NCBI GenBank assembly: GCA_963809895.1 | Contig: CAWELD010000010.1 | Span: 544,001 to 608,000 of the forward strand | Direction: 5' to 3' | Origin: an uncultured Gemmatimonadales bacterium | GTDB taxonomy: Bacteria; Gemmatimonadota; Gemmatimonadetes; Longimicrobiales; Gaopeijiaceae | DNA length: 64,000 nt | Part shown: positions 56,921-63,850 of the stretch, piece by piece | How the letters are laid out: every line of letters begins with the position of its first letter | Numbering within the stretch: position 1 is the first letter of the stretch | The notes under the pieces: model-generated | Seen by the model: only the letters and a program-made list of their open reading frames with translations | Databases searched by the model: none | What the model was told of the DNA's origin: nothing | Translations under genes and position numbers: made by a program

Positions 56921-57910
56921 ATGACGCCGCCGACTCCGCTCGAGACCCTCCGCCGCGCCCTGCGCACCAGGCGCTACAGCTCCAGAACCGAGAAGGCCTA
57001 CGTCGGGTGGGCGAGGCGGTTCCTGCATTTCCACCGGCGCCGCGCGCTGGAGTCGTTGGGCAGGAGAGAGGTGGACGCCTACCTGACGCACCTGGCCGTG
57101 GCGCGCCGCGTGAGCGCGTCCACTCAGAATCAGGCCGCGAGCGCGCTGGTGTTCTTCTTCAAGGCGCTGGGCCGGCCCCTGCCCGGCGGGGGCCGAACGA
57201 TCGTGCGTGCCCGGCGCCCGGCGAGGCTGCCCGAGGTGCTGTCGCCAGGCGAGGTGCGGAGGGTGCTCCGGGAGATGAGCGGGCAGAAGCGCCTTGTGGG
57301 CGCGCTGCTGTACGGCTCCGGATTGCGGCTGAACGAGGCCCTCCGGCTCAGGGTCAAGGATGTACGCCTCGAGCTCCGGGAGCTGGTCATTCGGCAGGCA
57401 AAGGGGCGACGGGACCGGGTCGGCCTCGTGCCGGACCGCCTCCGAGAGCCCCTGGCCCGGCAGATTCGCCGTACCCGCCGCCGGTTCGAGTCCGACCTCC
57501 AGCGAGACGCAGGTTGGGTCGAGCTCCCCCACGCCCTCGAACGCAAATCACCCCGACTCGCCCGATCGTTCGGCTGGCAGTTCATCTTCGGTTCCAGCCG
57601 TCTCAAGAAGGATCCCAGAACCCGCCGCCTCACCCGCCCCCCCATGCACCCCAGCGCCATGCAGCGGGCCGTGAAGGTGGCCGCCCGCCGCGCGGGTATC
57701 GACCGCCGCGTCACCTGCCACACCTTCCGCCATTCCTTCGCCACCCACCTGCTCCGTAGCGGTTACGACATCCGAACCGTCCAGGAGCTCCTCGGCCACA
57801 AGAGCGTCCGCACCACCATGATCTACACCCACGTTCTCAACCGCCCCGGCCTCGGCATCATCAGCCCCCTGGACCGTATGGGCGAGGAGGGCGAGGAGGG
57901 CGAGGAGTAG
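56921..57910 (+). CDS. intI: Integron integrase
   Basis: [39 protein letters not shown] and TMIYTH; integron-specific insert [10 protein letters not shown]...WQFIF. Confidence 0.96.
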
Positions 57911-59541: not shown

Positions 59542-60052
<511 letters not shown>

Positions 60053-61370: not shown

Positions 61371-61429
61371 TCGGCCGCCGGATCGAGGCCCGCTGTCTAA
61401 CCAGCGTATCTGGACTCCCCCGACAGCAG

Positions 61430-61680
61430 TGCGCAAGTCGGACAGATAGCAGAGAGGGTCGACTGCAGTCGTATCTCCGGCCCTTGGGTGGGCGCATTCA
61501 GTTGGCCCTGGCCACGATGGAAAGTCGCGCGTGGGGTGCCTATCGATTTCACGGCCCTGGAGGCGCACGTTTGTTATCGGCTCCTCCCCACGCCGGTCCG
61601 CCCGGTCTGCCATCGATGTCGTCTCAACGCAGTTCGTCGATTCAGATCCTCCTTGTTCTGAGTGGCGGGCGTGTGTGATG
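61430..61680 (-). ncRNA. Predicted bridge/seekRNA region of the IS
   Basis: Stem GCGTGGGG/CCCCACGC (61529-61536 / 61586-61593) encloses two target-matching segments; two IS-end-matching segments follow. The RNA ends are not determined. Confidence 0.7.
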
Positions 61681-61681
61681 C

Positions 61682-62704
61682 CTACGCGGCGTGCCGCGGC
61701 TCGAAGTCCCGTTGGTCCCGCCACACTCTCCAGGCGACACGGGCGAGCTTATTGGCAAGCGCGACGGCGGCCAGGTTGAAGTTCTTCCGGTTCTTGAGCT
61801 CCAAGGCCCAGGTGCGGAGGTCGTCCGGTTCGTCGGCCACCATCCCGGCGCGCAGGGCCGAGCGAGCCCCGTGGATGAGGAGCATGCGGAGGTAGGTGTT
61901 GCCGCGCTTGGTGATGCGGCCCAGTCGTCGAACCGCTCCGGAGCTGTGCTCCCGCGGTGTGAGCCCGAGATAGTCCGCGAAGCTCCGGCACGAAGGGAAG
62001 CGCTGCACGTCGCCGACGAAGGCGACCATCGCGGTGGCGGTGAGCATCCCGATCCCGGGTACGCTCATCAGATGGCGGGCGTCGGGCATGTGATGGGTTA
62101 GCCGCTCCAAACGCTGCTCGATGTCCTTGGCCCGAGCCGCGAGGCGTTCAATGTCGTCGAGCAACTCGAGCAGCACCCCGCCGAGCAAGTCCGGCACCGC
62201 CCCCTGCGTGAGCGCCGAGCGCGCGAAAGGAACCACCTTCCTCGCACCGGCGGGGATGTTCACTCCGTACTCGCGAAGGTGACCTCGAACCGCGTTGATG
62301 CGTGCCGTCCGGGTCTGCAGGTAGCCGGAGCGGATCCGGTGCAGGGCTGCCATGGCCTGCTGCTCTTCGGACTTCACGGGCACCGCATCGATGGCCCGAT
62401 TCCTCGAAGCCTCCAGCAACGCCTTGGTGTCGGTCCGGTCTGTCTTGTTGCCGTCCCTATACCGACGGACATCCCCAGCCGGCAGCAGACGCACCTGGTG
62501 GCCCATGGCTCGACACTCTCGGCCCCAGTAGTGCGCCGTGCCGCAGGCCTCCATCAGGATCTCCGACGGTGCCTGTGTCTCCAGGAACCGCCGGAACCCG
62601 GATCGATTGAGCCGCCGGTGCTCGGTGACTTGCCCCACCTCGTGCGATACCGCGATCTCGAACACGCTCTTTGCCAGATCCACTGCCACCTGCGTAGTCT
62701 TCAT
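61682..62704 (-). CDS. IS110-family DEDD transposase/recombinase
   Basis: AVDLAK, MEAC, KTDRTD, SVPGIG and GLTPREHSSG. Confidence 0.96.
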   Translation of the reverse strand: MKTTQVAVDLAKSVFEIAVSHEVGQVTEHRRLNRSGFRRFLETQAPSEILMEACGTAHYWGRECRAMGHQVRLLPAGDVRRYRDGNKTDRTDTKALLEASRNRAIDAVPVKSEEQQAMAALHRIRSGYLQTRTARINAVRGHLREYGVNIPAGARKVVPFARSALTQGAVPDLLGGVLLELLDDIERLAARAKDIEQRLERLTHHMPDARHLMSVPGIGMLTATAMVAFVGDVQRFPSCRSFADYLGLTPREHSSGAVRRLGRITKRGNTYLRMLLIHGARSALRAGMVADEPDDLRTWALELKNRKNFNLAAVALANKLARVAWRVWRDQRDFEPRHAA

Positions 62705-62911
62705 CGGGACTCCTCCTTCGGGCTTGGCCTTCGGGGCCGTTCGTGTCAGTGGCAGAGTGCTGCCACTCCGGAGGGGGAGTCCATCCCATCAATTCCTACT
62801 GCGTGCTCAACGACCGAAAGGGTCGCGCGCGAGGCGCGCGGTCGACATCATGAGGCACGCAGCAGAGTCGCAAATTCGTTATGTGGTCGTCGTCAGCCTG
62901 AAGAAGACACC

Positions 62912-63850
62912 GTGCAAGGAACCGTAGCGAACACCGACCGCGGTTGGTACGAGTTCCTTCGAGGTCGTCCTGACCTCGCCGAGGTCAACTTCTGGTCGCC
63001 ATCTCCGAGGCGAGCCTTCCGCGGCGATCCCATGACCCCGTTCTTTTTTCGACTCAAGGCCCCGCACAAGGCCGTAGCCGGCTTTGCATTCTTCGGGCGT
63101 TACGGACGGCTCCCCGTTTGGCTGGCTTGGGAGGCGTTCGGTGCGGGGAATGGAACGGATTCGCTGGCCGACCTGAAGGATCGACTTCAGACGCTACGGG
63201 ACCACATCCGCTTCGACCCTCCGCCTGGTCCCGACGAGATCGGCTGCACGATTCTGCTCGAGCCCGTTTTCTTCCCCGAAGACTTGTGGGTTCCGGAGCC
63301 GGCGGACTGGAAAGGCCGAACGCAGGGGTATCGGTACTATGACCTTGAGTCCGGCGAAGGCGAACTCTTGTGGAGGCGCTGCCGAGAAGCGGCCCGTCTG
63401 GTATCGGAGCGCTCCTACTCCGAGCCGGCTGCTGTGATTGAGCGGGCCACGCGCTACGGTGCGCCGCATCTCGTGCTGCCTCGAATGGGCCAGGGAACGT
63501 TCCGCATCGCCACCCTCCAAGCGTATGAGAAGGCCTGCGCAGTAACGGGAGAGCACTCCCTGCCGGCCTTGGAGGCAGCGCACATCTGGCCGTTCCATGC
63601 TGGTGGGCAGCACGAAGTGTCCAACGGCATCCTCCTGCGGGCGGATCTCCACCGCCTGTTTGATCGGGGCTACGTCACCGTTACTCCGGATCTGACACTT
63701 CGCGTTAGCCCACGGCTAAGAGCGGACTTCGACAACGGGAGGAGCTACTACCCGTTCGACGAGAAGCCGGTGCGCGTACCGTCCAAGGACACAGAGCGTC
63801 CCAACCCGGAGCACCTGGATTGGCATGGTCGGAATGTGTTCCTCGGGTGA
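62912..63850 (+). CDS. Cassette 4: HNH endonuclease (putative restriction nuclease)
   Basis: CAVTG...LEAAHI...NGILLRADLHRLFD; N-terminal NTDRGWYEFL...EVNFW domain. Confidence 0.85.
   Translation: MQGTVANTDRGWYEFLRGRPDLAEVNFWSPSPRRAFRGDPMTPFFFRLKAPHKAVAGFAFFGRYGRLPVWLAWEAFGAGNGTDSLADLKDRLQTLRDHIRFDPPPGPDEIGCTILLEPVFFPEDLWVPEPADWKGRTQGYRYYDLESGEGELLWRRCREAARLVSERSYSEPAAVIERATRYGAPHLVLPRMGQGTFRIATLQAYEKACAVTGEHSLPALEAAHIWPFHAGGQHEVSNGILLRADLHRLFDRGYVTVTPDLTLRVSPRLRADFDNGRSYYPFDEKPVRVPSKDTERPNPEHLDWHGRNVFLG

What the first reader, a model, noticed from the sequence alone, without database searches (positions are those of the whole stretch)
61430..61680. Readable bridge/seekRNA: four guide segments match the attC target and both IS ends around a CG core
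Seen in sequence, read on the transposase strand. An 8-bp stem encloses TAACAAACG (61576-61568; target top strand TAACCAGCG, 7/9) and GAAATCG (61550-61544; target bottom strand GGAATCG, 6/7). Further 3' are CCATCG (61520-61515; IS end CCATCA) and AGATACG (61476-61470; an exact match to the junction at 61411-61405). All four segments end in CG. Established: IS110/IS1111 recombinases use non-coding RNAs with target- and donor-binding loops. Inference: this is an RNA-guided recombinase programmed against the conserved TAAC arm of this integron's attC sites, and a candidate new ortholog.
Basis: partly seen in the sequence, partly recalled or inferred. Interest (0 to 1): 0.9.

Follow-up and report, generated by a model that had tools for sequence, protein, structure and literature searches.

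The report
Guide RNA of integron-targeting jumping gene
This stretch most likely encodes the small guide RNA that steers a jumping gene into integron recombination sites; it is a new example of a kind described in 2024, and its relatives show that the RNA tracks the element's own ends as well as its target, a point the published studies disagree on.

Summary
Observation confirmed. All four segments lie at the stated coordinates; 0 of 20,000 shuffles give all four in order. They sit downstream of an intact IS1111-type transposase in a 1,385-bp element (61407-62791) that splits an integron attC; an empty copy of the site occurs elsewhere in the genome. Across homologues the guides track each element's own DNA: in 19 held-out clusters both target guides and the right-end donor guide beat all 20,000 permutations, the latter matching 5/5 in 17 of 19; the other donor guide is weaker. 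Corrections: the CG core belongs to the target, the element brings CA; only 5 of 21 intact attC arms carry CG in register; the RNA does not fold by itself into the two-loop model. The nearest named relatives (ISPa25, ISKpn4, ISPa21; 47-48%) are known attC-targeting IS1111 elements, and ISKpn4's seekRNA has been shown experimentally. The scan noted the same kind in other genomes. Verdict: new member of a known kind. The added value is comparative support for a donor-binding loop in IS1111 RNAs, which is disputed, and for unmatched cores. Expression and activity were not shown.

The parts
61407..62791 (-). IS1111-type insertion sequence, 1,385 bp, opposite in orientation to the cassettes
   Evidence: Boundaries from the empty site at C3:653517 and the second copy at C10:624498-625551 with the same junctions; a contig of run X2 leaves the sequence exactly behind 62791
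61682..62704 (-). DEDD recombinase/transposase, 340 aa, open frame; D9, E52, D89, D92 and S255-G256 by motif position
   Evidence: PF01548 + PF02371; NF033542 295.7 bits vs cut-off 140; motif positions; residue roles inferred from the family
62773..62791 (-). Left end: 7-bp extension (62791-62785, begins with the element's own core) plus 12-bp sub-terminal inverted repeat (62784-62773)
   Evidence: the 7 bp/3 bp rule is stated in PMC11187229
61407..61421 (-). Right end: 12-bp sub-terminal inverted repeat (61421-61410; 11/12 match to the left one) plus 3-bp extension (61409-61407)
61445..61614 (-). Predicted bridge/long seek RNA (about 170-180 nt), closed by a 9-bp outer helix 61614-61606 with 61453-61445; ends not determined
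   Evidence: only one copy in the genome by covariance model; expression not shown
61529..61593 (-). Target-binding arm: 8-bp stem, 3-bp stem, internal loop, inner hairpin
   Evidence: compensatory changes in the stem across 27 sequences
61568..61576 (-). Guide 1 (left target guide in IS621 terms), 7/9 to the attC R'' arm plus core
61544..61550 (-). Guide 2 (right target guide), 6/7; followed by AU (61543-61542), the candidate handshake dinucleotide
61515..61520 (-). Guide 3 (left donor guide), 5/6 plus a G-T wobble to the left end; the weakest-supported guide
61470..61476 (-). Guide 4 (right donor guide), 5/5 to the right end plus the CG core
61395..61406 (+). Left part of the split attC: R'' box (61395-61401), 3-nt spacer and CG core (61405-61406)
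62792..62884 (+). Remainder of the split attC, ending in the R' box (62878-62884)
   Evidence: the bottom strand of the intact sister site at C10:619116 folds as a long hairpin, z = -4.5
56921..57910 (+). Integron integrase of the array that holds the element
   Evidence: TIGR02249 388 bits vs cut-off 265

Best explanation
The stretch is the guide-RNA gene of an attC-targeting IS1111-family element and works like an IS110 bridge RNA. Shown by sequence: element, ends, empty target, guide order, and covariation of the guides with each element's own target and ends. Inferred from IS621 and ISKpn4/ISEc11 work: the element is copied or excised to a circle whose junction drives transcription through the transposase into the non-coding region. 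The RNA binds the transposase; guides 1 and 2 open the attC R''/L'' arm, and guides 3 and 4 hold the joined element ends. With the window's plus strand as 'top', the guide order and both junctions fit the IS621 geometry: a top-strand cut 3' of the two-base core, and exchange, giving target-CG-element on one side and element-CA-target on the other. The element is simply inverted relative to its RNA compared with IS621. The second core base need not match between donor and target.
For: Order-and-match test 0 of 20,000 shuffles. First set: 43 of 61 loci at >=44% identity could be parsed, 25 clusters; own-pair scores 135 vs 110 (guide 1, n=21), 74 vs 44 (guide 2, n=20), 96 vs 87.5 (guide 3, n=22), 120 vs 111 (guide 4, n=24), each 0 of 20,000 permutations; control flank five bases further out 12 vs 17.6. 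Held-out set located by covariance model: 28 of 53 matches usable, 19 clusters; guide 1 101 vs 54, guide 2 71 vs 26, guide 4 90 vs 67 (each 0 of 20,000), guide 3 67 vs 62 (67 of 20,000). Guide 4 equals the own right end 5/5 in 17 of 19 clusters, in nine different spellings, and in 41 of 41 first-set loci, including the single-base variant of ISKpn4. The last two bases of guides 2 and 4 follow the core (33 vs 20, 0 of 20,000; ISEc11 has AA/AA). The dinucleotide after guide 2 is AU where donor positions 6-7 are AT (24 of 25 clusters have AU) and CU in the ISKpn4 group, whose donor has AG: one compensatory event that fits the IS621 handshake pairing (PMC11208158). Scaffold: 88.7% of cells paired, covariation 0.152 vs 0.086 shuffled, best slid control 0.075. 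The same scaffold is present in ISKpn4, ISPa25 and ISEc11, and for ISKpn4 and ISEc11 the RNA co-purifies with the transposase (PMC11187229).
Against: No expression or activity data for this element. The two-loop model of this RNA costs -53.5 kcal/mol against a minimum of -72.4, and the fold z-scores are weak (0.17, -1.37, -1.75), so the model needs protein or DNA to be stabilised; a different fold that leaves the four guides unpaired reaches -69.8. Guide 3 shows little variation: 1,119 of 20,000 within the close clade, where guide 4 is invariant and so uninformative; 5 of 19 held-out clusters mismatch at guide 3. Permutation counts overstate significance because the elements are related. Guide 1 has two mismatches to both occupied sites. 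The handshake logic holds only for the target loop: the AC after guide 4 does not follow target positions 6-7. Siddiquee et al. found an 82-nt RNA without a second loop sufficient and more active for ISEc11, and deny a donor loop in it.
Confidence: 0.8

Rival explanations
1. SeekRNA-only model: only the target arm (about 61600-61525) is functional after processing; the element ends are read by the protein through the sub-terminal inverted repeats, and segments 3 and 4 are dispensable.
For: For ISEc11 the 82-nt RNA was more abundant and gave 42% vs 15% transposition (PMC11187229); the authors state their data support no role beyond target selection (peer-review file). Guide 3 covariation is weak. 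Long inverted repeats offer a protein-binding site.
Against: Segment 4 follows each element's own right end through ten spellings, and its last two bases follow the core. That requires selection on pairing at some step of the natural cycle. A mixed case (full RNA for circle formation, target arm alone for some insertions) is compatible with both readings and was reported for an IS110 element (bioRxiv 2025.10.25.684509, abstract).
Confidence: 0.13
2. Segment 3 is a structural stem strand that pairs with the upstream CGAUGG (61615-61610), not a donor guide.
For: RNAalifold on 11 sequences predicted this 6-bp helix with compensatory changes in 2 sequences.
Against: That alignment stopped short of the 3' partner. 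With it included, the upstream strand pairs more strongly with 61453-61445 or its equivalent in 30 of 31 RNAs; mean pairing probability 0.82 vs 0.01.
Confidence: 0.05
3. The matches are chance or relics of duplicated ends.
For: Three of the four matches are individually common in shuffles (28-83%).
Against: Order test, covariation in two sets, and a negative flank control.
Confidence: 0.02

Closest known systems
attC-targeting IS1111 elements ISKpn4, ISPst6, ISPa25, ISPa21 (IS1111-attC group; seekRNAs in Siddiquee et al. 2024, PMC11187229)
   Same: Best hits among plasmid records (47.7%, 46.6%, 47.0%); same clade, SH-aLRT 99 in a quick tree; downstream non-coding region, sub-terminal repeats with 7/3-bp extensions, insertion in the R'' arm of attC opposite to the cassettes, same RNA scaffold and guide order.
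   Different: Under 50% protein identity. It inserts with 3 bases between TAAC and the core, against 4 in ISKpn4/ISPa25 (21 vs 12 of 37 loci); 17 of 20 rows of its own sub-clade (support 100) are of the 3-base type. It sits in a chromosomal array of a 69%-GC bacterium. The published work describes only the two target matches.
IS621/ISCro4 bridge RNA systems (Durrant et al. 2024, PMC11208160; Hiraizumi et al. 2024, PMC11208158)
   Same: Four guides around a two-base core, same order relative to the RNA, junctions consistent with a top-strand cut 3' of the core, AU after the right target guide facing donor AT.
   Different: Distant protein (E about 1e-13, C-terminal part only). The RNA lies downstream of the gene. 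The donor guides lie in a multiloop. The core is CG/CA rather than a shared CT; the first base is constant and the second differs, the reverse of IS621, where the second base is nearly invariant.
Predicted IS1111 bridge RNAs of ISPa11, ISCARN28, ISAzs32 (Durrant et al. 2024, Fig. 6d; text only seen)
   Same: Donor-binding nucleotides predicted in a multiloop in the right end.
   Different: Those were manual predictions for other elements. In the supplements I could search, the attC group appears only as a tree cluster (one file unreadable, one cut).

Membership tests
IS1111 family | DEDD transposase of 330-350 aa with PF01548 and PF02371 | tested here: met
   340 aa
IS1111 family | Sub-terminal inverted repeats of 11-13 bp, 7 bp from the left and 3 bp from the right end | tested here: met
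   12 bp, 11/12 match, 7 and 3 bp
IS1111 family | Long non-coding region downstream of tnp | tested here: met
   260 nt between stop codon and repeat
IS1111 family | No target duplication; specific target | tested here: met
   Empty site and two copies with the same junction
IS1111 family | Circular intermediate with junction promoter | tested here: inconclusive
   No circle joint in four contig sets, which cover the element only in pieces; the computed junction creates a -10-like hexamer but no good -35 at 16-18 bases (read by eye)
IS1111-attC group | Inserted in the R'' arm of attC, opposite to the cassettes | tested here: met
IS1111-attC group | Transposase groups with ISKpn4/ISPa21/ISPa25 | tested here: met
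   (quick tree; the careful search did not finish)
IS1111-attC group | Exactly the same insertion position as ISKpn4/ISPa25 | tested here: not met
   One base closer to TAAC. The register varies from 2 to 4 across relatives, so I treat it as a variable trait; the original group definitions (Tetu & Holmes 2008, Post & Hall 2009) were not read
seekRNA | Top-strand match 5' of bottom-strand match (element orientation) | tested here: met
seekRNA | RNA is made, co-purifies with the transposase and is essential | not testable with these tools
   Needs bench work
bridge RNA | Target guides covary with the target | tested here: met
bridge RNA | Donor guides covary with the element ends | tested here: met
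   Guide 4 strongly, guide 3 weakly
bridge RNA | Identical core in donor and target | tested here: not met
   CG vs CA here and in 21 of 32 first-set loci with both ends; identical cores in 6 of 32. More distant IS1111 elements mostly have identical cores (20 of 28)
bridge RNA | Independent reprogramming of both loops | not testable with these tools
   Needs bench work

The most novel reading that the evidence does not exclude
IS1111-family RNAs, including those of ISKpn4 and ISEc11, carry a functional donor-binding loop with IS621-like handshake pairing, so long seekRNA and bridge RNA are one mechanism. In addition, the attC-targeting clade routinely recombines a CA donor core with a CG target core and tolerates a one-base shift between guide 1 and the core. 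That would give a bridge recombinase lineage without the matched-core rule, in which the top strand alone fixes the product.
Probability: 0.5. Interest if true: 0.65.

Novelty: new member of a known kind. Interest (0 to 1): 0.4.

Why it matters
As a locus it is ordinary: one more attC-targeting IS1111 element, of a kind the scan has met in other genomes. Two things lift it a little. First, whether IS1111 RNAs recognise the donor is disputed in print (predicted by Durrant et al., denied for the short seekRNA by Siddiquee et al.), and the right-end guide tracking ten different end spellings names the exact bases for a compensatory-mutation test. Second, current bridge-editing designs pair sites with identical cores (bioRxiv 2025.05.14.653916, methods passages); a lineage that works with unmatched cores would widen the choice of sites. 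Such elements also split attC sites and so may lock cassettes in place (inference).

Tried and rejected
Rfam: no match in the window at gathering thresholds. Unconstrained folding does not give the conserved two-loop model. The first shuffle test used coordinates off by one to two bases and was discarded; one search replaces it. The first guide parsers mis-anchored guide 1 or crashed; one search is the table used. The integrase search used the wrong strand and is ignored. The 'anti-guide' helix was tested and disfavoured. Viral contigs: no match to the RNA pattern. No RNA holder listed among public runs, which says nothing about expression. No circle or empty-site joint in contigs of X1-X4, which cover the element only in pieces. 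In one search two attC rows (C10:620597, 623011) were mis-registered by the script; their sequences show GG at the core position. In one search the ends of L108 and L136 look mis-called by my repeat finder; they are kept as misses. L093 (damaged left end) was left out of three of the four tests, and L065 out of the guide-2 test. The consistent polarity of the core mismatch cannot tell single-strand transfer from two-strand exchange with repair off the top strand, since both predict it. No structure or complex prediction was run, as the protein family is not in doubt.

Full report
1. Observation. The four segments and the junction read exactly as stated. The element runs 61407-62791 (1,385 bp), with 12-bp sub-terminal repeats set 7 bp and 3 bp inside its ends. 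Removing it restores a 105-bp attC (61395-61406 plus 62792-62884). The same 14-base target stands uninterrupted at C3:653517 and, with one change, at C10:619116; the bottom strand of the latter folds as a long hairpin (z = -4.5). A second, broken copy at about C10:624498-625551 sits at the same position of another attC. In 20,000 shuffles of the 260-nt non-coding region the four matches occur singly in 28%, 43%, 83% and 1.0%, together in 18 and in order in 0; the thresholds were taken from the observation.

2. Context. The transposase (62704-61682, minus, 340 aa) hits PF01548, PF02371 and NF033542. An integron integrase lies at 56921-57910 (TIGR02249), and attC-like sites continue to about C10:640 kb. 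Of 21 intact R'' arms scored, 5 carry CG at the core position; most carry GG (with two rows corrected). Both occupied attC sites share the same nine bases before the insertion point. The guide therefore addresses a sub-family of sites, with two mismatches in guide 1; the best match in the genome is the empty site C10:619116 (7/9 and 7/7). Genome-wide, 8 sites pass the observed thresholds, of which 2 are attC. The covariance model finds one RNA copy in the genome.

3. Covariation. From genome, metagenome and plasmid searches, 61 loci had a best segment of at least 44% identity; 43 had a parsable RNA (18 dropped as truncated or lacking the anchor) and fell into 25 clusters. Own-pair match scores beat all 20,000 permutations for each guide; a control flank did not (12 vs 17.6). 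Within the close clade the two target guides still beat all permutations (96 vs 84.7; 48 vs 34), guide 3 did not (1,119 of 20,000) and guide 4 was invariant. I built a covariance model from 27 RNAs and applied it to 52 further or repeated loci. Of 53 matches, 28 were new elements with a transposase and both ends (5 dropped as already used, 7 without ends found, 13 without an upstream transposase), giving 19 clusters, mostly at 35-39% protein identity and with unrelated targets. Guide 1 scored 101 vs 53.6, guide 2 71 vs 25.5, guide 4 90 vs 66.5, the core positions 33 vs 20.4 (all 0 of 20,000), and guide 3 67 vs 62.3 (67 of 20,000). Guide 4 equalled the own right end in 17 of 19 clusters, in nine spellings; ISKpn4 adds a tenth. 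Relatedness inflates these counts, but many different spellings cannot come from one shared ancestor alone. A close relative in run X1 aligns from 61405 onward; among its listed differences one falls in guide 2 and none in guides 1, 3 or 4 (11 rows not shown).

4. Structure. The conserved model has an outer helix, a small hairpin, a target arm with an internal loop holding guides 1 and 2, then guide 3, a hairpin and guide 4. Counted on 27 sequences (outer helix left out because it aligns poorly): 88.7% of cells paired, 11 of 32 pairs with changes on both sides, covariation 0.152 vs 0.086. One pair of the inner hairpin fits only 5 of 27 because the window's RNA has a bulge there. Against the model: for this RNA it lies 19 kcal/mol above the minimum and single-sequence z-scores are weak. 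An apparent helix between segment 3 and an upstream strand loses to the 3' partner in 30 of 31 RNAs.

5. Mechanism. Taking the window's plus strand as top, the guides run left target, right target, left donor, right donor, as in IS621 (PMC11208158). The reversed order reported for IS1111 (PMC11187229) is then the element's inversion relative to its RNA (inference). A top-strand cut 3' of the core in target and donor gives exactly the two junctions seen. The target supplies CG and the element CA; this pairing occurs in 21 of 32 first-set loci with both ends, identical cores in 6, whereas distant IS1111 elements mostly have identical cores (20 of 28). Both top-strand-only transfer (bioRxiv 2025.10.25.684509; 10.64898/2026.08.31.748434) and two-strand exchange with repair of the nicked bottom strand (PMC13626964) predict this polarity, so it does not decide between them. 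The dinucleotide after guide 2 is AU in 24 of 25 clusters, facing donor AT, and CU in the ISKpn4 group, facing donor AG: a single compensatory event in favour of handshake pairing. The dinucleotide after guide 4 shows no such relation. Circle formation, transcription and binding are inferred from relatives, not shown.

6. Known systems. The best plasmid hits are ISPa25, ISPa21 and ISKpn4, and a quick tree of 48 proteins puts the element in one clade with them (support 99) and in a 20-row sub-clade (support 100) dominated by the 3-base register. Siddiquee et al. showed seekRNAs for ISKpn4 and ISPst6, both attC-targeting, and predicted one for ISPa25. Durrant et al. predicted bridge RNAs in 93% of IS1111 elements, with donor guides in a multiloop. 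In the peer-review file the Siddiquee authors deny a second loop in the short RNA. Five literature searches listed no experimental test of IS1111 donor guides and no IS1111 structure, judged from titles and abstract starts; the PDB search returned only IS621 and ISCro4. The library lacks most subscription papers.

7. What I saw of each paper. PMC11187229: parts 1-5 of 9 of the text, supplementary file 1 as text, passages of the review and source files. PMC11208160: passages, section 12, supplement search. PMC11208158: passages, section 8. PMC13626964: passages, Discussion. PMC13604230: passages with Table 1. bioRxiv 2025.05.14.653916: passages. bioRxiv 2025.10.25.684509: abstract, section 7. 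bioRxiv 2026.08.31.748434: abstract. Post & Hall 2009: title in a reference list only. Tetu & Holmes 2008: recalled and named in earlier scan notes, not read. No figures were visible.

8. Earlier scan notes. Eight notes on other genomes describe the same kind of element; they are unchecked and came after my own reading. None lies near this locus or matches its sequence.

9. Verdict. Real feature, correctly read, new member of a known kind; interest 0.4. The comparative case for a donor loop and for unmatched cores is the part worth a bench test.

Noticed in passing
G000:C10:624498-625551 (L001, L062): Second copy of the element in another attC, 94.7% identical over 397 bp at its left end; the RNA region and the 3' part of the transposase are replaced by a Mutator/IS256-family transposase fragment (PF00872).
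   Followed up: partly
G000:C10:about 630889-631122 (L002): A 0.23-kb element with both IS ends, no transposase and no guides, inserted after a CG in a site that was not found as an attC; a possible non-autonomous derivative or off-target insertion.
   Followed up: partly
window 56921-57910: The integron integrase is on the same strand as the cassettes and points towards the array, not away from it as in class 1 integrons (the comparison is recalled).
   Followed up: no
window 59542-60052: Cassette with a BrnT-family toxin (PF04365) and a 72-aa downstream ORF, probably its antitoxin.
   Followed up: no
window 62912-63850: Cassette with an HNH endonuclease (PF13391) weakly similar to phosphorothioate-DNA restriction enzymes (NF045808, below cut-off); a likely defence gene.
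   Followed up: no
G000:C3:653418-653518 and C3:3237119: attC sites far from the array; the first is an empty exact copy of the target, and the second lies within 5 kb of a distant IS110-family gene.
   Followed up: partly
L065 (G398:C1:about 2410200-2410520): The element's tail (donor part of the RNA plus right end) is tandemly duplicated, and this genome holds several extra RNA-model hits next to full elements.
   Followed up: no
L003, L005, L022, L029, L126: Relatives inside the attC-targeting clade whose guide 1 lacks TAAC; for L005, L029 and L126 the flank changes with it, which looks like natural retargeting.
   Followed up: partly
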